Shown here: positions 1 through 8,239 of the stretch, piece after piece
Position numbering within the stretch: the first letter of the stretch is position 1
Layout of the letters: each line of letters begins with the position of its first letter
Sequence record: MK327935.1
DNA: 64,000 nucleotides
Source of the DNA: Escherichia phage vB_EcoM_G2494
Strand: one strand, 5' to 3'
The notes under the pieces: model-generated
The model's database searches: none
What the model was told of the DNA's origin: nothing
The model's input: the letters and a program-made list of their open reading frames with translations, nothing else
Made by a program: the position numbers and the translations under genes

Positions 1-704
1 AAATCATCGAAACGTTCAAAGGTTTTACCTTCATTTGCTTCGCCAAATTTAACCATTCTCAGGCCGTAACGACTACTAAACAGACGTTTCAACTGTCCAA
101 CGATTTTAGAATCAGTGGTTATAACTTCCAATTCTTCTACTTCACGAAAGAATTTTCTATCAGAATCAATAAACCAGCTAGTTCCTTTATGGTCTCTATC
201 TTCGGTTGCGCTCATTAGAGTATGGTCTTTACCATCAATTTCAATTACATCAATTTGCCCACATGGACTAACATTTTTAACAGTAAAAGGTCTATAATTT
301 ATTGCTCGTGCAATAACATAATTAAGGTTAGATACGTTTTCAGCATAATGGCAGAAGTCTGTCATAGCATTCGCATCTTTCCAAGTATAAGTTTTACCAA
401 CTTCCCATTTCTGGGGAACTTCTTCAACTTCACGAAAGAATTTTCGATCGAATGGACTAAAGAAATATGTTGCAGTCCAAATGTCTTTTCCTGTAGCAGT
501 TTTTGCCGTATGATAAACACCGTCTAGCTCTATTGCATTAATCCAACCGTTACCCTCGATCTCGATGATGGTAAATGGCTTGTCACCAATAGCTGCACTA
601 ATATCGCTGTTAAGTGGAGAAAGAACACCTTCTCCGTTAGTAATAAACTCAGTTTTAGCGTTTTCATCTTTCCAGGTGTAAGTTTTACCAATTTCCCATT
701 TCAT
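1..704 (-). CDS. hypothetical protein, 3'-truncated at window edge; two internal ~95-aa repeats
   Basis: Hand translation of minus strand from ATG near 704 (SD AAGGGGAA upstream) stays open to position 1; repeats each begin KWE(I/V)GKTYTWKD and end DRKFFREVEE. Not in ORF track because no stop in window. Confidence 0.45.
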   Translation of the reverse strand, partial: MKWEIGKTYTWKDENAKTEFITNGEGVLSPLNSDISAAIGDKPFTIIEIEGNGWINAIELDGVYHTAKTATGKDIWTATYFFSPFDRKFFREVEEVPQKWEVGKTYTWKDANAMTDFCHYAENVSNLNYVIARAINYRPFTVKNVSPCGQIDVIEIDGKDHTLMSATEDRDHKGTSWFIDSDRKFFREVEELEVITTDSKIVGQLKRLFSSRYGLRMVKFGEANEGKTFERFDD

Positions 705-716
705 AATATATTCCCC

Positions 717-1196
717 TTAACCGATTTTATCAAGTTCGTTTAATGCTTTCTCTGCTTCCTGTATAGCTTGCACTCTTTCCGGCATTTTGTCAAGAAAATC
801 TTTCAACTCTTCAAAACTGGAGATATGACGCAAGGCATTAGCACCGATAGCCGCATGTGATTTGCATTCAAAGCGAATTTTATAATTATCCATCGCCAAT
901 TTGAGAAGATCAATTAATTTAGATTCTTCTGGAATAATAATTTCTTCAAATCTGCTACGGTCATGATCCAGAAACCAACAAGATAGACCTACATCGGTTG
1001 AACTCATATAAGTTCCATCATGAAGATAAACAGACCGCACGTATCCTTTTTTCGCATCAACCGACGCAACTTTAAACGGTAATCGCAGATATTTCAAATA
1101 ATCAACATCATACCATTTAAAAAATTGGTTTGCATCTTTTACATCTTTCCACGCATAGGTCTTACCAGCTTCCCATTTCATAATATCATCTCTCAT
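717..1196 (-). CDS. hypothetical protein, paralog of neighbouring WExGKTY-domain genes
   Basis: ORF track 159 aa; N-terminal MKWEAGKTYAWKD motif shared with flanking ORFs. Confidence 0.5.
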   Translation of the reverse strand: MRDDIMKWEAGKTYAWKDVKDANQFFKWYDVDYLKYLRLPFKVASVDAKKGYVRSVYLHDGTYMSSTDVGLSCWFLDHDRSRFEEIIIPEESKLIDLLKLAMDNYKIRFECKSHAAIGANALRHISSFEELKDFLDKMPERVQAIQEAEKALNELDKIG

Positions 1197-1722
1197 TTTT
1201 GATACGTGATTCTAATTGGATCATACGGTCGCGCGTTTGCTTGTATTCGCGGATAGCACCGATTCGGCTAGGCATACCATCCAGTACGCTCTTAATCCCT
1301 TCTAGGGTAGTGATTTTAGCAATACTATTATGTAATCCCATCTTATCGATTAACTGAATGTCGTAGGCTTCCATAAGCAGACCCAGACGTTCTAAAGTTA
1401 GGTCTTCTTCTTTTTCTTCCGATTCTGGAATCTTAGGTTCAATAGTAACTTCGGTAAAGAAACGACGCTCACCAGACCAAAACCACACACCGGAACAGCC
1501 AATAGGGGATTCTTTTAACGTCATAGAGTCGTAACCACTGCCGATAATAGTAATTTCTCTAACATCACCATCATCGTCAAGGTCTTCTACCCTAAACGGG
1601 CGACCAGCCAACAAGTCAACAATACATCTGTTAATAGACGACGAAAATTTAGTCAGTTCGGCTTTCGACGCTTCGCATTCAATCTTGTAAGTTTTACCAA
1701 CTTCCCATTCCATAATAATCAC
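1186..1722 (-). CDS. hypothetical protein, WExGKTY-domain paralog
   Basis: ORF track 178 aa; N-terminal MEWEVGKTYK motif. Confidence 0.5.
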   Translation of the reverse strand: MIIMEWEVGKTYKIECEASKAELTKFSSSINRCIVDLLAGRPFRVEDLDDDGDVREITIIGSGYDSMTLKESPIGCSGVWFWSGERRFFTEVTIEPKIPESEEKEEDLTLERLGLLMEAYDIQLIDKMGLHNSIAKITTLEGIKSVLDGMPSRIGAIREYKQTRDRMIQLESRIKNER

Positions 1723-1723
1723 C

Positions 1724-2233
1724 TCAAATAATTTTCACTGGAATACTATTAACAATCTTGTATTGTACTTGATTGTCAGACCCCCGCCACGGCTTCTTCG
1801 TTGGCATATCTTTAATATAACGCCCATCGATGAACATGTCAACTGATTCTACAATTTTTCTTTGCTCATCATTCAATTGGTCAAGGGTATAACCAGACCA
1901 TAGCCAAATATCTTTATTTGGCATCCATGATTTTACTTCATCGATGATCCGTTGTACACCCTTTAAATTGCGTTTATACAGTGGATCGCCACCTAAGAAT
2001 GTTAGCCCCTGAATAAAATCAGGTCTAAGCAGATCCAGAATTAATCCCATTGTATCATCGGTGAATAGTTCCCCGTTCTTAGGATTGAGTAGACTGGAAT
2101 TAAAGCAACCATCACATGCGTGTGAACATCCGGTAACGTAAAGGGAGACTCTCACTCCCTCACCGTTAACCATATCACAATCTTTAATATCGGCATAGCG
2201 TAGTTTGCCGTATGTATCAGAACTCATATTCAA
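1724..2233 (-). CDS. nrdG: anaerobic ribonucleotide reductase activating protein (radical SAM)
   Basis: 169 aa; DMVNGEGVRVSLYVTGCSHACDGCFN cysteine cluster resembles T4/E. coli NrdG N-terminus; near nrdD. Confidence 0.85.
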   Translation of the reverse strand: MNMSSDTYGKLRYADIKDCDMVNGEGVRVSLYVTGCSHACDGCFNSSLLNPKNGELFTDDTMGLILDLLRPDFIQGLTFLGGDPLYKRNLKGVQRIIDEVKSWMPNKDIWLWSGYTLDQLNDEQRKIVESVDMFIDGRYIKDMPTKKPWRGSDNQVQYKIVNSIPVKII

Positions 2234-2444
2234 TTACCCCGAACTCGTTTACAATCTGCGCTTTATAGTAACCACCGCGAGATGCTAATAGATAAGCTGG
2301 GCTTAGGTATTCGTATTCACGGATTTCTACTTGTGCGTTTTCAGTTTCCCAAATCAGTAAAGTCCACATATTTGATTCTCCTGTAAAGTTGTATCTCGTC
2401 TTGATGAATATAGTATAGGGGATCTCGCGATCCCCGTCAAGCAT
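2217..2444 (-). CDS. small hypothetical protein (start possibly internal ATG near 2369 with AGGAGA SD)
   Basis: ORF track 75 aa, same strand as neighbours. Confidence 0.3.
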   Translation of the reverse strand: MLDGDREIPYTIFIKTRYNFTGESNMWTLLIWETENAQVEIREYEYLSPAYLLASRGGYYKAQIVNEFGVIEYEF

Positions 2445-2449
2445 TTATT

Positions 2450-2992
2450 TTAAATTTTTCGAATGTATTCAGACCATTCCTTCCCTGTCATTTCGGACCC
2501 GTTCTGGAAACTGAAATATTCATACGGCATCGAGTCAAGATAAAACAGGATCATACATCGCGCCATATAATACCAATCACGATTAAAGTAAACTACGTTA
2601 TCACCAGTACCATCAACCCCTTTATCATAACCATCGCGGGTACGGGCGACCCATTGAATGGTATCATTTTTCTCACGGATAGTAACAGGTTCCCAATATC
2701 CAGCACATCCAGCATGACCACACGAACAAGTAAGGAAATATTGACCTTTTGCTTTGTTGTCATCCCATTCACGATGAATTGGTTTGATTTCGTGAAACAG
2801 TGCCAAACAATCATGATTATGCAACACTGGCTTACCATCAATCAATGCATGGAATGTATACAAACGACCAGTAGACAAATAGCTATCCTCACGCTCAACC
2901 AGTTCAATAGCAATCTTTTTAGCTTGTTCTTTGTGTCGTTGTGCTTTACGCTTACGGTTTAATGATTTCATATTCACCTCACACATTATCAA
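2450..2992 (-). CDS. hypothetical protein, Cys/His-rich
   Basis: ORF track 180 aa. Confidence 0.5.
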   Translation of the reverse strand: MIMCEVNMKSLNRKRKAQRHKEQAKKIAIELVEREDSYLSTGRLYTFHALIDGKPVLHNHDCLALFHEIKPIHREWDDNKAKGQYFLTCSCGHAGCAGYWEPVTIREKNDTIQWVARTRDGYDKGVDGTGDNVVYFNRDWYYMARCMILFYLDSMPYEYFSFQNGSEMTGKEWSEYIRKI

Positions 2993-3534
2993 AGGTCGCG
3001 ATATAGTACATTATGAAAATGAGAACTTGCATTACCAATATTGTAGATAATAAATTCTTCATCCGGCGCTTGCGCTACAAATTGAGTATGAGCAACCGCC
3101 ACAACCTTAAAAATACGATCCGTGATCTTGTGTTTAATTTCTGCCCCTACTTCCATAGGAACATATTCATTTGTTTCTGTTTCAGTCGCAAAACAGCCAT
3201 CTTCTTCATAAGCACGAACAAATCGGTCGCAATCAGTACGCTTAACAAATTCAAGAGTATATAATTCTCGTGAATTGTCGGTATAGACCAATACAGAATT
3301 ATTATGATAGCGAATCACATACAGGTTATTATCATCGTCAATTACGCAAAAGCTACGGATTCCTTCGCCTTTACTCCAGCAGATATTAACCACCGTTCCT
3401 CTAATAAAAAAACTTTCCTTTAAATTAAAACTAGCCAATGTGCTAGCGTGCATTTTAACAACAACACCATCGCCAATTTCCAGTTTACGAAGTTTAACTT
3501 CTTTGCTCAGTACACAAAACATCATCATCATCAT
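2989..3534 (-). CDS. hypothetical protein
   Basis: ORF track 181 aa; promoter 3564-3591 upstream. Confidence 0.5.
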   Translation of the reverse strand: MMMMMFCVLSKEVKLRKLEIGDGVVVKMHASTLASFNLKESFFIRGTVVNICWSKGEGIRSFCVIDDDNNLYVIRYHNNSVLVYTDNSRELYTLEFVKRTDCDRFVRAYEEDGCFATETETNEYVPMEVGAEIKHKITDRIFKVVAVAHTQFVAQAPDEEFIIYNIGNASSHFHNVLYRDL

Positions 3535-3563: not shown

Positions 3564-3591
3564 ATTATACATTAGCTAATCAGGTTGTCAA
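3564..3591 (-). promoter_or_regulatory. sigma70-like early promoter (TTGACA-16-TATAAT)
   Basis: Minus strand reads TTGACAacctgattagctaatgTATAAT; member of a repeated promoter family. Confidence 0.6.
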
Positions 3592-3628
3592 CACCCCAAA
3601 ACGAAAAAGCCGACCCTTTCGGATCGGC
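3592..3628 (-). terminator. rho-independent terminator downstream of nrdD
   Basis: Minus-strand RNA hairpin gccgaucc-gaaa-gggucggc followed by UUUUUCGUUUU; 6 nt after nrdD stop. Confidence 0.6.
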
Positions 3629-3634
3629 TGAAAA

Positions 3635-5497
3635 TTACATGTGCTTAACGCGGTTTACCATCTCGGAGTGTTTCCCGTGGTTAAATGGACGCAGATCAAC
3701 AGATCCAAGATATCCACTAACGCGACGGATAACATTCATCTTTTCCAGATTGTCATTGCCGCAATCAGGACAAACAAAACCAGACTCGGTCGCTCTCATT
3801 TCCTTATTAGATCCGCATACATGACATACATCAGAAGGAGTATTAACACCGAAGTAGTGCAATTTATCCATTGCATAGTCCACTACAGTTTCAAGACCTT
3901 TCAGGTTGTTTTTCATGTCTGGGAACTCAACATAAGAGATCATGCCACCGGACGCCAGCCAGTGATAATCTTTCTCAAAGTCGATTTTCTCAAATGGAGT
4001 GACTTTCCGGTCTACGTCAAGGTGGAATGAGTTGGTGTACCAGTCTTTATCGGTAGCACCCTTAACAATACCAAATTGCTCTCGGTCCAGTCGATTAAAT
4101 CGATAGCAAAGGCTCTCGGCTGGCGTACCGTAAAGACTAAACCCAAGTCCGGTTTCGTCCTTCCATTTTTCAGTATAATGACGCAAGATCTTAAGAATAT
4201 GTTTACCGTATCGCTGCGCATCTTCCGAATCAAACGGATGAACATCAAACAGGACGCTCAATACCTCATGTAAACCAATATATCCAAGAGAGATACTAGC
4301 GCGACCATCTTTCAGAACTTCCAAAATTTCATCGTTTTGATGAATACGGAAAAACGCACCTTCGGTATACAGTACAGGAGCAACATTAGCTTTAGCGCCT
4401 TTTAAAGCGTCTACGCGACTCATGAGCGCATCAAAACAAATAGGCATACGATTAGCTAGCTCTTGTTCGAATAGCTCAATTCTGCGCATTACAGACGCTT
4501 TACCAGCACGACGCGCGGCAATAAGGGCAATACGCGGAAGATTCAGAGTCACAACACCTAAGTTATTACGTCCGTCTAATACTTCTTCGCCTTTCTCATT
4601 ATGCCACACACCCAGGAAGCTACGACAACCCATCGGGCTAACCGGAACACTAGATCCAGTGATACTACGGTTATTCTTCGCAGAGATATAATCAGGGTAA
4701 AGACGCTTACTAGAACATTCCAATGCAAGTTGCTTAATGTCGTAGTTCGGATCTTCCGGTTTAAGGTTTAATCCTTCTTCTAAGAACATCACCAGCTTAG
4801 GAAACACCGGAGTGATACCATCTTTACCTAAACCTTTAGTTCGAACTTTCAGGATCGCTTTCTGAATCAGTTTTTCTTCCCAGCTAGTCCCCATACCAAA
4901 TGTTAAAGTCACAAAAGGTGTTTGACCGTTGGTGGAGAACAAAGTGTTGATTTCATATTCCAACGCTTGATACCCGTCTAGCGTTTCTTTTTCTGTCTTC
5001 TCTTGTGCATAGAGAGTATCCGCTTTGATTCCGTAGGTTTCGGCATCAGCAAGGTGTTTATGATATGTTTTCTCAACATACGGTGCTAACACCTGATCGA
5101 TGTTTGCAATTGTGGTCCCGCCATATTGATGACTTGCCACCTGTGCGATAATTTGAGCGGTTACAGCACATGCAACACCGATCGATTTAGGACTTTCGAT
5201 TTGTGCGCTACCCAATTTAAAACCATTCTCTAACATGTCTTTGAGATTAACAAGACAGCAGTTAGTAAACGGCATAGCGGGTGCATAATCCATATCATGA
5301 TAATGAATGTCACCGTCTACATGCGCTTTATAGATGTGCTCAGGTAACACGGTTTTAGCAATCTGTTTAGACACAGCACCAGCAATCAGATCTCGACGTG
5401 TCGGGAATGTTCGCGCGTCTTTGTTCGCGTTCTCTTTGCTTACTTCGTTTTCTTTACCCGTTGCGATCTCTGTAATGTCTTTGATTAGTTTTTCCAT
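3635..5497 (-). CDS. nrdD: anaerobic ribonucleoside-triphosphate reductase
   Basis: 620 aa; resembles T4 NrdD along its length; C-terminal glycyl-radical motif RRVSGYLG and Cys-x2-Cys zinc site; no intron interruption. Confidence 0.9.
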   Translation of the reverse strand: MEKLIKDITEIATGKENEVSKENANKDARTFPTRRDLIAGAVSKQIAKTVLPEHIYKAHVDGDIHYHDMDYAPAMPFTNCCLVNLKDMLENGFKLGSAQIESPKSIGVACAVTAQIIAQVASHQYGGTTIANIDQVLAPYVEKTYHKHLADAETYGIKADTLYAQEKTEKETLDGYQALEYEINTLFSTNGQTPFVTLTFGMGTSWEEKLIQKAILKVRTKGLGKDGITPVFPKLVMFLEEGLNLKPEDPNYDIKQLALECSSKRLYPDYISAKNNRSITGSSVPVSPMGCRSFLGVWHNEKGEEVLDGRNNLGVVTLNLPRIALIAARRAGKASVMRRIELFEQELANRMPICFDALMSRVDALKGAKANVAPVLYTEGAFFRIHQNDEILEVLKDGRASISLGYIGLHEVLSVLFDVHPFDSEDAQRYGKHILKILRHYTEKWKDETGLGFSLYGTPAESLCYRFNRLDREQFGIVKGATDKDWYTNSFHLDVDRKVTPFEKIDFEKDYHWLASGGMISYVEFPDMKNNLKGLETVVDYAMDKLHYFGVNTPSDVCHVCGSNKEMRATESGFVCPDCGNDNLEKMNVIRRVSGYLGSVDLRPFNHGKHSEMVNRVKHM

Positions 5498-5541: not shown

Positions 5542-6036
5542 TTATTTTACCAGTTCTGCTAATTCTTTTTCCGCCGCTTCCAGTTCAGCTTTAAGCTGTT
5601 TAATCTCTTGTCGCTTCTTATTAGCGGCTTCCTGCTTACTATTTCGGATAACCTGATCTAGATACAACTCCCAATCCTGAATATTTTTGATAATGTATCC
5701 GTCAACATTAATTGGTCGGAGATTCAGTACAGCTTCCAGTTTAGTCGCAAAAACTTTAATTGCTGGTGTGAAGTATTCATATTCGTTATCTTCAAACCAA
5801 TAACCTAGACTTGCATTATCAATACGAAGACGAAGTTTAAGATCAAGGTCTTTATCGTCGGTGTAAAGATCTTTCACCTGCCCCATCGAGCTAACAACAA
5901 CTTTAAAACGAATTTTATCTACACCGCCAAAAACATCTTCAAGAATATCAGCAATTGAGCTATTAGCGCAAGATTGGTCGCTGAATGCGTCAAGGTTTTC
6001 TTTAGTTACAGTATACCAAACATCTTGTACCCACAT
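5542..6036 (-). CDS. hypothetical protein
   Basis: ORF track 164 aa; start preceded by GAGGATTATATTATG context. Confidence 0.55.
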   Translation of the reverse strand: MWVQDVWYTVTKENLDAFSDQSCANSSIADILEDVFGGVDKIRFKVVVSSMGQVKDLYTDDKDLDLKLRLRIDNASLGYWFEDNEYEYFTPAIKVFATKLEAVLNLRPINVDGYIIKNIQDWELYLDQVIRNSKQEAANKKRQEIKQLKAELEAAEKELAELVK

Positions 6037-6066
6037 AATATAATCCTCTCGTTGTTAAGTGGGAGT

Positions 6067-6094
6067 ATTATAGCATACTCCCTTCGCATGTCAA
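6067..6094 (-). promoter_or_regulatory. sigma70-like early promoter with inverted repeat across the -10
   Basis: Minus strand TTGACAtgcgaagggagtatgcTATAAT; inverted repeat gggagta...tactccc. Confidence 0.55.
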
Positions 6095-7269
6095 GCACTA
6101 ACTTTTTTCTTTACTGCTTTCACCTTCTGGCGAATTGCTCGAATCTCTTCGATCTCTTTTTCAGTCTCTTTAACAATTTCTTTGCGATTCTGAATATCTG
6201 TATCGAGATTATCATCAAGTTTAGGCAGCATGTCAATCAAGAACTTTTTAAAGTCTTTCAGGTTTCGGATAACAGCACCTTCACCCATTACCGCAACACC
6301 CACACCATCCGGCAGATCACCAAACAGCTTAACCAGTTCAGACAGATGATCATGATCTTCTAGTGCTTCTTCCGGTTCAGATGGCAGTTCAACAAAGTTA
6401 TAACGTTCATCATTGCTGATCAAGTGATACCAGCAAAGCCCGAAAGATTTCGGTGTATATTCTACACCATCAATTTCAACCGCGTCAACACTTCCATAAT
6501 CATCTACTTTAGTTACCTTAAATCCTTGTCCCAGCTTTTGAACAATTTCAACAACATGACTTGATACAGTTTCAGCGGTAAACCAATATGGCAAATTATG
6601 CTGATTTGGCTTGTAGCGTTCACCTACTTTAAATCTCTGACCAGCCGCTTGCATAGAATGAAATTGTTGTTTCGTGATTTCCGCGAAGTATTCAAATTCG
6701 CCACCATCAAACACACAAGCCCATTGATCACAAAAACGATCTGCCTTAACAGTTTCACCTTTCGCGGTGATCGTGGTAGCTGATCCGTGCAATTCTTCTT
6801 CAACTAAAAAGCCATATTCGACAAAATCAACAAGTTTCATAGCTTCTTTGTGATCTGGATCATGCTCTCCCCAGAATCGCTTAAATTCTTGCAAACCTTC
6901 TGGGGTAAACGAATAACATTTACCTTTTTCAAAGTAAGTCGGCATTGCATCCTCTTTCTTGTTCATCGCTTCGTATGCCTCTTTTGAGATGCGTTTAAAG
7001 TATTTACGCTCACTGTGCATAATCATAGTAGCCCAATAATCCACAATATCATTAGCGGAATAAACTACATCTCCAGCTTCAATAGTAATAACATGACCGT
7101 GGTCATCTTTTTCTAATACTTTAAAGCCCTTTTCTACGATTTCAGCAACCCGAATATGACCACGGCGCGAAGCATCGGTCAGAATAATTGAATAGCGAGA
7201 AAAGTCTAGAAACTCATCTTTACCGCCTTCACGGAATGCATAGTAATGACCTTCAAAGAATTTAGCCAT
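6091..7269 (-). CDS. hypothetical protein (shares ERKYFKRI motif region with next two genes)
   Basis: ORF track 392 aa; GAGGATTATATTATG start context. Confidence 0.55.
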   Translation of the reverse strand: MAKFFEGHYYAFREGGKDEFLDFSRYSIILTDASRRGHIRVAEIVEKGFKVLEKDDHGHVITIEAGDVVYSANDIVDYWATMIMHSERKYFKRISKEAYEAMNKKEDAMPTYFEKGKCYSFTPEGLQEFKRFWGEHDPDHKEAMKLVDFVEYGFLVEEELHGSATTITAKGETVKADRFCDQWACVFDGGEFEYFAEITKQQFHSMQAAGQRFKVGERYKPNQHNLPYWFTAETVSSHVVEIVQKLGQGFKVTKVDDYGSVDAVEIDGVEYTPKSFGLCWYHLISNDERYNFVELPSEPEEALEDHDHLSELVKLFGDLPDGVGVAVMGEGAVIRNLKDFKKFLIDMLPKLDDNLDTDIQNRKEIVKETEKEIEEIRAIRQKVKAVKKKVSA

Positions 7270-7300
7270 AATATAATCCTCTCGTTGTTTAGACGGGAGT

Positions 7301-7329
7301 ATCTTACTACTCCCGTTTCATCATGTCAA
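7301..7329 (-). promoter_or_regulatory. sigma70-like early promoter (TTGACA-17-TAAGAT) with embedded hairpin
   Basis: Minus strand TTGACAtgatgaaacgggagtagTAAGAT; inverted repeat acgggagta...tactcccgt. Confidence 0.55.
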
Positions 7330-7892
7330 GCGTTAAATGACTTTTGGATCTCTTTCAGTTCAGCTACTTTATCGGCGCTGAATTTAGCGTAGGTATCATG
7401 TCGAATAATTTCACTTTCAAGAAAGGTTTCCAGCCGAGTTCTATTTTCAATAAGGAACTCTTTCAGGTCTTCCGCGTTCTTGATAAAGATTTTATTGTCG
7501 GTAATGTCATCTTCAATCGCAAAGGAGATAGAGCGAACTTTACCAAACAAGTTAATCAGATCTTCCAGAGATTCTTCTTTCTTAACTGGTTTCATTTCTT
7601 CAAACTGCTTTTTAGTGATACGTTTAAAGTATTTGCGCTCGTTTGCAGCAATCAGAACAGATGCACCTTCATACTCATGAGTTTCTACCAGATACACACG
7701 CCCCATCGCATCAACAGTTAGAACTTTAAAGCCGTTACAAAGCACGTCATACAAGAACTTATTATGTTGCGGACATCGTTTGATAAATTCCTCTGCGGAC
7801 TCAGCATTACGGAAAGTGTAATAACGACCTCGTTCAAAAACAGCATCAGTTGAAGACTTAGCCGGATACAATTTATACGTTTTCTGTACCAT
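7326..7892 (-). CDS. hypothetical protein, paralog of 6091-7269
   Basis: ORF track 7326-7910; start refined to ATG at 7892 preceded by GAGGATTATATT; ERKYFKRITK motif. Confidence 0.5.
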   Translation of the reverse strand: MVQKTYKLYPAKSSTDAVFERGRYYTFRNAESAEEFIKRCPQHNKFLYDVLCNGFKVLTVDAMGRVYLVETHEYEGASVLIAANERKYFKRITKKQFEEMKPVKKEESLEDLINLFGKVRSISFAIEDDITDNKIFIKNAEDLKEFLIENRTRLETFLESEIIRHDTYAKFSADKVAELKEIQKSFNA

Positions 7893-7906
7893 AATATAAT
7901 CCTCTA

Positions 7907-8179
7907 TCATTTCACTAATTGAACAGCACGAAACAGAATGCGGTCACACGGAAGAAGCATAAATTCCCAACGCGGATCAAAGTCTTTAGCGGTATATGTT
8001 TTCCCATCAACCGAGATTTCACTTACATAACCAATAGGTGACACTTTAAGAACAGTAAACCCATTCTTGATGACTTCGTAGGTATCTTTCAATCCTTCGT
8101 AGTCATCCTCTAGGAAGTCTTTACGTGCTTGCTCAGATTTAAAAACATAGGCCACACCAGCTTTAAACATCTTACGCAT
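7907..8179 (-). CDS. hypothetical protein, paralog of the two upstream genes
   Basis: ORF track 7907-8239; start refined to ATG at 8179 with AAGGAG SD; promoter 8211-8239 lies upstream of this start. Confidence 0.45.
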   Translation of the reverse strand: MRKMFKAGVAYVFKSEQARKDFLEDDYEGLKDTYEVIKNGFTVLKVSPIGYVSEISVDGKTYTAKDFDPRWEFMLLPCDRILFRAVQLVK

Positions 8180-8210: not shown

Positions 8211-8239
8211 ATTTTACTACTCCCATTTCTTATTGTCAA
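8211..8239 (-). promoter_or_regulatory. sigma70-like early promoter (TTGACA-17-TAAAAT) with embedded hairpin
   Basis: Minus strand TTGACAataagaaatgggagtagTAAAAT. Confidence 0.55.

What the first reader, a model, noticed from the sequence alone, without database searches (positions are those of the whole stretch)
1..1722. Tandem paralog family sharing an N-terminal WExGKTY(T/A)WKD module
The partial leftmost gene contains two internal ~95-aa repeats (KWE(I/V)GKTYTWKD ... DRKFFREVEE), and the next two genes (717-1196, 1186-1722) begin with the same module. Tandem intragenic and intergenic duplication of a small domain suggests a rapidly evolving family, possibly host-interaction or anti-defence.
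Basis: seen in the sequence. Interest (0 to 1): 0.45.

Follow-up and report, generated by a model that had tools for sequence, protein, structure and literature searches.

The report
Expanded GoF-family barrel proteins, RB49-like phage
The repeated module is real: it is the N-terminal beta-barrel domain of the phage T4 GoF/Frd.2/MotB.1 family of small early proteins, whose function is unknown, and this RB49-like phage carries many more copies than T4, several of which are swapped as cassettes between closely related phages.

Summary
The window comes from a Krischvirus (RB49-like T4-type phage). On the minus strand, the cut gene at 1-704 holds two ~96-aa repeats that are 50% identical. The next two genes (717-1181 and 1186-1713) start with the same domain. 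Similarity runs across the whole unit, not only the WExGKTY motif. The same domain occurs in four more genes at 5542-8179, giving 10 copies in 7 genes here and 12 copies in 9 genes in RB49. It is the N-terminal barrel of T4 GoF (hhalign 94.5%; reciprocal PHROG hits), the "LSm-like fold" family described in 2025. AlphaFold2 gives a confident small barrel, a disordered linker and a helical tail. FeoA is the nearest solved fold, but only weakly, and no Hfq/Sm hit appeared. Between near-identical Krischvirus genomes, the barrels of the nrdG-nrdH cluster differ by 30-50%, while their tails and the flanking genes are 96-100% identical. Synonymous sites in those barrels are saturated and dN/dS is 0.2-0.45. 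This points to exchange of old cassettes, not fast positive selection. One-repeat and two-repeat forms both occur. Function is untested; an anti-defence role is only a guess. I class it as a new member of a known kind, of moderate interest.

The parts
1..704 (-). First 234 codons of the two-barrel gene, orthologue of RB49p049 (274 aa when complete). Barrel 1 is 417-704, barrel 2 is 123-416, and the start of the helical tail is 3-122.
   Evidence: Translation. The HMM gives two full domains. RB49 annotation. P0113 is 100% identical. In the AF2 model both repeats have the same barrel topology, with pLDDT about 80-88.
717..1181 (-). One-barrel gene with a helical tail, 154 aa, orthologue of RB49p050. 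The ORF extends to 1196, but the probable start is ATG 1181.
   Evidence: phrog_5347 E 1.7e-59 and phrog_622 E 1.6e-3.
1186..1713 (-). One-barrel gene with a helical tail, 175 aa, orthologue of RB49p051. The ORF runs from GTG 1722, but the probable start is ATG 1713.
5542..6036 (-). More distant paralogue, 164 aa, with one barrel and a coiled-coil tail (RB49p057).
   Evidence: Iterated HMM; phrog_15067 and phrog_3710.
6091..7269 (-). Three-barrel paralogue, 392 aa (RB49p058). RefSeq annotates it as 'frd.2 / goF mRNA metabolism modulator'.
   Evidence: Three HMM domains. phrog_8944 E 7e-214 and phrog_622 with three stretches. Annotation. Constant length in 58 records.
7326..7892 (-). One-barrel paralogue, 188 aa (RB49p059, annotated 'goF mRNA metabolism modulator').
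7907..8179 (-). Barrel-only paralogue, 90 aa, with no tail (RB49p060).
   Evidence: phrog_16115, phrog_5347, phrog_622.
705..733 (-). Sigma-70-like promoter match (10 of 12) just upstream of the two-barrel gene.
   Evidence: This is a consensus match only.
1814..1842 (-). Sigma-70-like promoter match (11 of 12) inside the 3' end of nrdG, upstream of the gene that starts at 1713.
6067..6094 (-). Perfect sigma-70 consensus (12 of 12, with TG) upstream of the gene at 5542-6036.
7301..7329 (-). Sigma-70-like promoter match (10 of 12) upstream of the three-barrel gene.
8211..8239 (-). Sigma-70-like promoter match (11 of 12) upstream of the barrel-only gene.
132..161 (-). 30-nt segment coding for DRKFFREVEE at the end of barrel 2. 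It is 93% identical to 420-449 at the end of barrel 1.
   Evidence: Synonymous divergence is lower at the repeat ends than in the interior.

Best explanation
These genes are members of the GoF/Frd.2/MotB.1 family of T4-type phages, multiplied in this lineage. The family consists of small, mostly acidic proteins. Each has an N-terminal five-stranded SH3-like beta-barrel of about 90 aa (called "LSm-like" in the literature), a flexible linker and a helical tail.

In this RB49-like phage the family has grown by tandem gene duplication and by duplication of the barrel within genes. The window holds 7 genes and 10 barrels. The RB49 genome holds 9 genes and 12 barrels, against 3 genes reported for T4. 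The genes sit in two clusters on either side of nrdD/nrdG.

The barrel looks like a fixed hydrophobic scaffold with a free surface. In the nrdG-nrdH cluster it behaves as an exchangeable cassette. Recombination at its conserved ends swaps, deletes or adds whole barrels, while the tail stays constant.

Likely mechanism (inferred, not shown): the proteins are made early from sigma-70-type promoters. Each barrel binds a different macromolecular partner, and the tail provides dimerisation or a shared docking function. By analogy with T4 GoF, I think the most likely field of action is post-transcriptional control of mRNA fate during host takeover. That would work through a protein of RNA metabolism rather than through general RNA binding.

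My estimates: about 0.9 for family membership, about 0.35-0.4 for a role in RNA metabolism, and about 0.1 for direct Hfq-like RNA chaperoning.
For: **Homology**
- A window-only HMM hits T4 GoF at 34.7 bits over the full domain. It hits Frd.2 at 13.8 bits and MotB.1 at 12.4 bits.
- hhalign of the 10 window barrels against GoF gives 94.5% probability, E 8e-8, over 85 columns. Frd.2 gives 68% and MotB.1 56%.
- T4 GoF and Frd.2 both belong to phrog_622. Six of the seven window proteins hit it, with E from 5e-20 to 1.6e-3; the exception is the gene at 5542-6036.
- T4 GoF hits phrog_5347, the family of the finding's genes, over residues 4-137. That span covers both barrel and tail.
- RefSeq already names RB49p058 and p059 "goF mRNA metabolism modulator".

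**Fold**
- AF2 gives barrel pLDDT about 90, a disordered linker and a helical tail. Both repeats of the two-barrel protein have the same topology.
- 62 BFVD models match at E<=1e-3. All with an organism name in the table are phage proteins, mostly from T4-like phages.

**Expansion**
-. No family member was detected in RB49 at the three T4 positions.

**Cassette behaviour**
- Among 36 orthologues of the 1186-1713 gene, barrel identity is 47-97% and tail identity is 89-100%.
- The pattern between genomes is bimodal, about 99% or 64-73%.
- dS is saturated only in the barrels.
- The alleles of barrel 1 and barrel 2 assort independently. Of 70 cluster representatives, 13 have one barrel, either barrel 1 only or barrel 2 only.
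- The AV108 junction lies inside KWEIGKTYTWKD.
- The repeat ends are kept similar at synonymous sites.

**Expression**
- Sigma-70 consensus matches lie upstream of five of the genes.

**Literature on GoF**
- GoF is an abundant early protein and is non-essential.
- D25Y and G84R rescue growth on rho mutants, and D25Y stabilises a gene 41 leader RNA.
- Wild-type GoF and MotB.1 have no such effect.
Against: - No member has a known wild-type function. The RNA effect in T4 belongs to a mutant allele only.
- Most barrels here are acidic, with net charge -5 to -9 and pI 4.4-5.1. That fits poorly with general RNA binding.
- Homology between the tails of the paralogues is only partly supported. A leave-one-out HMM is significant for 2 of 7 tails. 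My own tail HMM does not hit T4 GoF.
- Early expression rests on consensus matches only.
- T4 was scanned only over 1-62 kb and 141-150 kb, so the count of three genes in T4 rests on the paper.
Confidence: 0.55

Rival explanations
1. The proteins are a counter-defence or host-factor-inhibitor family. Each barrel would be a decoy or inhibitor for a different host immunity or host-range factor, and cassette exchange would reflect an arms race with variable hosts.
For: Between near-identical phages the binding-module-like barrel is highly variable while the tail is invariant. Presence and absence of barrels also varies. The genes are multi-copy, non-core, probably early, and lie in a plastic region. 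The proteins are acidic, as many phage inhibitors are. SH3, Tudor and KOW type barrels are typical protein-binding modules.
Against: No family member has been linked to any defence system in the papers found. dN/dS in the barrels is below 1. The three-barrel gene is not variable. [quoted passage not shown] That result does not exclude a role in other hosts.
Confidence: 0.25
2. The proteins are true LSm/Hfq-like RNA chaperones. The barrels would form rings or arrays and bind phage or host RNAs directly. Two-barrel and three-barrel proteins would act as covalent oligomers.
For: The published family description calls the fold LSm-like. GoF(D25Y) increases RNA half-life independently of Hfq. Tandem barrels could mimic an oligomeric Sm ring. 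About half of the window barrels carry an aromatic residue near the GoF D25 position and a basic residue at the G84 position.
Confidence: 0.1
3. The shared motif is a chance or compositional similarity, or the ORFs are not real genes.
For: None was found. Only the tails are weakly similar to each other.
Against: z-scores are 6-43, including without the motif. HMM, hhalign and PHROG hits are significant. The barrels fold with high confidence. Tails and flanking genes are under purifying selection, and the genes are conserved in 58 phage genomes.
Confidence: 0.01

Closest known systems
T4 GoF (ComC-alpha, NP_049624), the founding member of the GoF/Frd.2/MotB.1 'LSm-like fold' family (Kim et al. 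2025, PMC12152347; phrog_622)
   Same: The N-terminal barrel of about 90 aa is homologous (hhalign 94.5%). The architecture of barrel, acidic flexible linker and C-terminal domain is the same. Both are acidic. Both lie in early-gene regions of T4-type phages. FeoA-type SH3 domains are the nearest solved folds.
   Different: T4 has three dispersed single-barrel genes. This phage has tandem arrays, two-barrel and three-barrel proteins, a barrel-only protein, and longer coiled-coil tails. The genes sit next to nrdD/nrdG and not at any of the T4 positions. Barrel cassettes are exchanged between strains. Identity to GoF is only about 21%.
T4 Frd.2 (Pfam PF03197 FRD2) and T4 MotB.1
   Same: Both align over the full barrel with the window profile. 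hhalign gives E 4.7e-5 and 1.1e-4, and the HMM gives 13.8 and 12.4 bits. Both were assigned to the same family by the 2025 paper.
   Different: The relationship is remote. None of the window proteins reaches PF03197 even at E<=1. MotB.1 belongs to another PHROG, phrog_2333.
FeoA / DtxR-IdeR C-terminal SH3-like domains (CATH 2.30.30.90)
   Different: The scores are below the usual significance level. There is no sequence similarity, no metal-binding histidines, and no link to iron transport. The resemblance is in fold only.
Hfq / Sm (LSm) proteins
   Same: Both are small five-stranded bent beta-sheet barrels. The link to RNA stability comes from the GoF(D25Y) allele.
   Different: No Sm or Hfq structure appears among the top hits. 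There is no N-terminal Sm helix, no Sm1/Sm2 motifs and no predicted ring. The proteins are acidic.

Membership tests
GoF/Frd.2/MotB.1 family of T4-type phages (PMC12152347) | An N-terminal domain of about 85-95 aa that is homologous to the GoF N-terminal domain | tested here: met
   The HMM from the window barrels hits T4 GoF at 34.7 bits across HMM positions 2-93. hhalign gives 94.5% probability and E 8e-8. PHROG hits are reciprocal: window proteins hit phrog_622, and GoF hits phrog_5347.
GoF/Frd.2/MotB.1 family of T4-type phages (PMC12152347) | A predicted bent five-stranded antiparallel beta-barrel whose nearest solved fold is the FeoA-type SH3 domain | tested here: met
GoF/Frd.2/MotB.1 family of T4-type phages (PMC12152347) | The barrel is joined by a flexible linker to a separate C-terminal domain | tested here: met
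   The linker at residues 93-103 has pLDDT below 50 and is followed by a helical tail. T4 GoF aligns to phrog_5347 through the tail. The exception is the 90-aa protein at 7907-8179, which has no tail.
GoF/Frd.2/MotB.1 family of T4-type phages (PMC12152347) | An early gene of a T4-type phage | tested here: inconclusive
   The phage type is confirmed (Krischvirus). Sigma-70 consensus matches lie upstream of five genes. No transcript data were available.
GoF/Frd.2/MotB.1 family of T4-type phages (PMC12152347) | An effect on mRNA level or stability, or suppression of rho-mutant restriction | not testable with these tools
   This needs genetics or RNA assays. In T4 it is shown only for the mutant alleles D25Y and G84R.
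LSm/Hfq superfamily proper | The Sm fold: an N-terminal helix followed by five strands, with closest structural neighbours among Sm or Hfq proteins | tested here: not met
LSm/Hfq superfamily proper | Ring oligomers that bind RNA | not testable with these tools
   No multimer or RNA modelling was available here. The paper reports no confident AF3 multimers. Acidic pI values argue against generic RNA binding.
Pfam PF03197 (Bacteriophage FRD2 protein) | A score above the family's gathering threshold | tested here: not met
   T4 Frd.2 scores 133 bits. None of the seven window proteins and not T4 GoF gives a hit, even at E<=1.
[quoted passage not shown] | Sequence membership and significant structural similarity | tested here: not met

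The most novel reading that the evidence does not exclude
The nrdG-nrdH cluster may be a combinatorial specificity system. In this reading, a constant helical tail carries interchangeable barrels in one or two copies. The phage population shuffles these barrels by recombination at conserved barrel ends, so that each strain carries a different set of binders against variable host factors. Those factors could be defence proteins or RNA-metabolism proteins. It would be the early-gene counterpart of tail-fibre tip swapping.
Probability: 0.2. Interest if true: 0.7.

Novelty: new member of a known kind. Interest (0 to 1): 0.35.

Why it matters
The GoF family consists of abundant early proteins of T4-type phages, and their wild-type function has been open since the goF/rho genetics of the 1970s-90s. 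A recent CRISPRi screen found frd.2 to be the only fitness gene of unknown function in T4 (PMC11879866).

The RB49-type phages offer a natural experiment. They carry 9 genes and 12 barrels. Their barrel alleles differ sharply between otherwise identical genomes, and one-barrel and two-barrel forms of the same gene coexist. Allele swaps between such phages could show what the barrels recognise. That would test directly whether the family acts on RNA, on host RNA-metabolism proteins or on host defences.

If the barrels turn out to be ordinary redundant paralogues, the finding is only an annotation improvement for seven "hypothetical" genes.

Tried and rejected
- **Related loci:** The search for related loci with the barrel alignment failed because no stretch was conserved enough. 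I therefore could not survey IMG/VR contexts.
- **AFDB:** the afdb50 fold library was unavailable, so cellular structural relatives beyond the PDB were not searched.
- **Other libraries:** Pfam, NCBIfam and PDB sequence searches gave nothing for the window proteins.
- **Word-indexed searches:** these returned only Krischvirus-level relatives.
- **Exhaustive profile search:** it found only 60 clusters at E<=1e-3. About 8 of them are long repeat proteins with short partial matches, which I set aside as spurious.
- **Tail homology:** my own tail HMM does not reach T4 GoF. Leave-one-out tests support only 2 of 7 tails. I therefore do not claim that all tails are homologous.
- **T4 gp61.2:** it lies in the same position as RB49 Dc2 but is not detected by the barrel HMM.
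- **GoF D25 equivalence:** this position falls in a gapped loop, and its equivalence to the window barrels is ambiguous. I kept it only as a lead.
- **Positive selection:** I rejected it as the cause of barrel diversity because dN/dS is 0.2-0.45 with saturated dS.
- **Literature:** searches on 'goF' are swamped by 'gain of function'. A search for earlier descriptions of RB49 paralogue families found nothing relevant. The supplements of the 2025 paper are not held, so I could not check whether the RB49 proteins were among its 210 sequences.
- **T4 coverage:** T4 was scanned only over 1-62 kb and 141-150 kb.

Full report
**Where the window comes from**

Positions 1-2300 are 98-98.7% identical to RB49-like phages (genus Krischvirus, Straboviridae), with 58 matching records. 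In RB49 the finding corresponds to RB49p049 (274 aa), p050 and p051. All three are annotated "hypothetical protein". They lie downstream of nrdG on the minus strand and are followed by p048 and nrdH.

**Checking the observation**

The cut frame 3-704 translates to two tandem units of 96-98 aa. The four units are the two repeats and the N-termini of the genes at 717-1181 and 1186-1713. They align over their whole length.
- The two repeats are 50% identical.
- The other pairs are 28-34% identical.
- Alignment scores lie 9-43 standard deviations above shuffles.
- With the first 14 residues removed, scores are still 6.4-30 standard deviations above shuffles.

The similarity is therefore a domain and not a compositional motif. 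At DNA level the two repeats are 62.5% identical overall. The motif-coding 69-nt segment occurs four times, and the 30 nt coding DRKFFREVEE are 93% identical.

Ribosome-binding sites and the RB49 annotation place the real starts at 1181 and 1713.

**The family is larger**

An HMM built from the four units alone finds four more minus-strand genes in the window. After iteration the window holds 10 barrels in 7 genes:
- 5542-6036
- 6091-7269, with three barrels
- 7326-7892
- 7907-8179, a barrel with no tail

Scanning the rest of RB49 adds p048 and Dc2, which lies upstream of gene 41. The total is 9 genes and 12 barrels. The two clusters flank nrdD/nrdG.

**What the domain is**

PHROG searches gave the first lead, with weak hits to "goF mRNA metabolism modulator" families. 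RefSeq already gives that name to p058 and p059. The evidence for homology to the T4 family is:
- The window HMM matches T4 GoF over the full domain at 34.7 bits. It matches Frd.2 and MotB.1 weakly but over the full length.
- hhalign gives 94.5% probability for GoF, 68% for Frd.2 and 56% for MotB.1.
- T4 GoF and Frd.2 both belong to phrog_622, which six of the seven window proteins hit.
- T4 GoF hits phrog_5347, the family of the finding's genes, across barrel and tail.

No Pfam or NCBIfam model covers the window proteins. PF03197 FRD2 recognises only T4 Frd.2.

**Structure**

AlphaFold2 was run on the 175-aa protein (1186-1713).
- The barrel is confident, with pLDDT about 90.
- The order of elements is strand 1, two helices, strands 2-4, a short helix, then strand 5.
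- Residues 93-103 form a disordered linker.
- The tail is helical and of moderate confidence.

The full two-repeat protein gives the same topology twice. There is no confident packing between the barrels (pTM 0.40).

In BFVD, 62 viral models match at E<=1e-3. All with an organism name in the table are uncharacterised phage proteins, mostly from T4-like phages. Several share accession prefixes, which suggests that multi-copy sets are common; this is an inference.

The exhaustive profile search of 1.84 billion representatives found only 60 clusters. About 50 are convincing, about 10 have two barrels and one has three.

**How the family evolves**

Four divergent Krischvirus genomes were compared with RB49. 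Their nrdG, nrdH, 55.2 and a neighbouring gene are 96-100% identical. The four cluster-A genes are either about 99% or only 64-73% identical. In the diverged sequences I examined directly, the difference lies in the barrel.

Two larger samples agree:
- Among 36 orthologues of the 1186-1713 gene, barrel identity spans 47-97% and tail identity spans 89-100%.
- Among 70 cluster representatives of the two-barrel gene, the alleles of barrel 1 and barrel 2 assort independently. The tail stays at 88-100% in 67 of the 70.
- Of those 70, 13 have a single barrel, either barrel 1 only or barrel 2 only.

In phage AV108 the junction of the single-barrel form lies inside the KWEIGKTYTWKD motif. That is what unequal crossover between the repeats would produce.

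Divergence estimates are as follows:

| Region | dN | dS | dN/dS |
|---|---|---|---|
| Divergent barrels | 0.33-0.58 | 1.05-2.07 | 0.2-0.45 |
| Adjacent tails | 0-0.05 | 0.14-0.8 | <=0.07 |
| nrdG / nrdH | not given | 0.02-0.16 | not given |

The barrels are therefore old alleles moved by recombination under relaxed purifying selection, not products of rapid positive selection.

Between the two repeats of the same gene, I compared synonymous differences at codons with identical amino acids. There are 4 differences per 10.3 sites at the repeat ends and 17 per 19.7 sites in the interior. This fits conversion or recombination "handles", but the numbers are small.

The three-barrel gene is 90-98% identical and of constant length in all 58 records. 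The variability is therefore specific to cluster A, plus at least one p057 allele.

**Function**

From the literature:
- GoF is abundant early in infection, at about 20,000 copies per cell, and is non-essential.
- GoF and MotB.1 run as monomer and dimer.
- D25Y and G84R rescue T4 on rho mutants.
- D25Y stabilises a gene 41 leader-reporter RNA post-transcriptionally and independently of Hfq.
- Wild-type GoF and MotB.1 do not have this effect.

frd.2 was the only fitness gene of unknown function in a T4 CRISPRi-ART screen.

From my own results:
- Sigma-70 consensus matches precede five of the genes.
- Most of the proteins and barrels are acidic.
- The invariant positions in the barrel (Y9, F40, G49, F86) are consistent with core residues; this is my inference.
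- Variability is spread over the helices and loops, while strand 1, strand 5 and the tail are conserved.

I infer a fixed scaffold with a variable binding surface on a constant tail. It most likely binds proteins of RNA metabolism or other host factors, rather than acting as a general RNA chaperone. This step is inference.

**Verdict**

The thing itself is a lineage-specific expansion of a recently described family, with cassette-like exchange of barrels. It is a new member of a known kind and of moderate interest.

Noticed in passing
L004:11993-12628 (RB49 Dc2, outside the window): RB49 Dc2 (211 aa) lies just upstream of helicase gene 41 and is a member of the same barrel family (HMM E 4e-8; the Dc2 protein of phage ECD7 also matched in the BFVD fold search). 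In T4, the GoF(D25Y) effect concerns the gene 41 leader RNA. T4 gp61.2, at the same map position, is not detected by the HMM.
   Followed up: partly
window 123-704, 717-1181, 1186-1713, 6091-7269 (barrel positions equivalent to T4 GoF D25 and G84): The two T4 goF suppressor substitutions move GoF towards residues that are natural here. The column aligned with G84 is K or R in 5 of the 10 window barrels. An aromatic residue (Y, F or W) sits at or next to the D25 position in about half of them. The D25 region is a gapped loop, so that equivalence is ambiguous.
   Followed up: partly
L009:1472-1963 (phage ECD7 orthologue of the 1186-1713 gene): The ECD7 copy is annotated as 163 aa with an unrelated C-terminal 25 residues. 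This is consistent with a frameshift in the otherwise invariant tail. It could be a sequencing error or a real truncation.
   Followed up: no
window 6037-6051, 7270-7284, 7893-7907: Three cluster-B genes share the same leader, GAGGATTATATT, directly before the ATG. The cluster-A genes have close variants (GGGGAATATATT, GAGAGATGATATT, GAGGTGATTATT). The duplications therefore carried their translation-initiation regions with them.
   Followed up: partly
window 3564-3591 and 3608-3629 (minus strand): A perfect 12 of 12 sigma-70 consensus promoter lies immediately downstream of a strong terminator-like hairpin (9 pairs followed by a T-run) after nrdD. Together they look like a transcription-unit boundary before the genes at 2989-3534 and 2450-2992.
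   Followed up: no
window 2450-2992 (minus strand): This 180-aa protein of unknown function (phrog_8242) has a Cys/His-rich stretch (HNHDC...CSCGHAGCAGYW) that may bind metal. It has no Pfam hit.
   Followed up: no
window 2217-2444 (minus strand): This small ORF overlaps the start of nrdG and matches Pfam DUF7170 (E 2.4e-17) and phrog_4653. RB49 annotates only a shorter, 50-aa version.
   Followed up: no
window 3635-5497 (minus strand): nrdD is a single uninterrupted 620-aa gene here. T4 nrdD is split by a group I intron that carries I-TevII, and T4 also has mobC between nrdD and nrdG. The barrel-gene clusters occupy the flanks of this conserved nrdD-nrdG pair.
   Followed up: no
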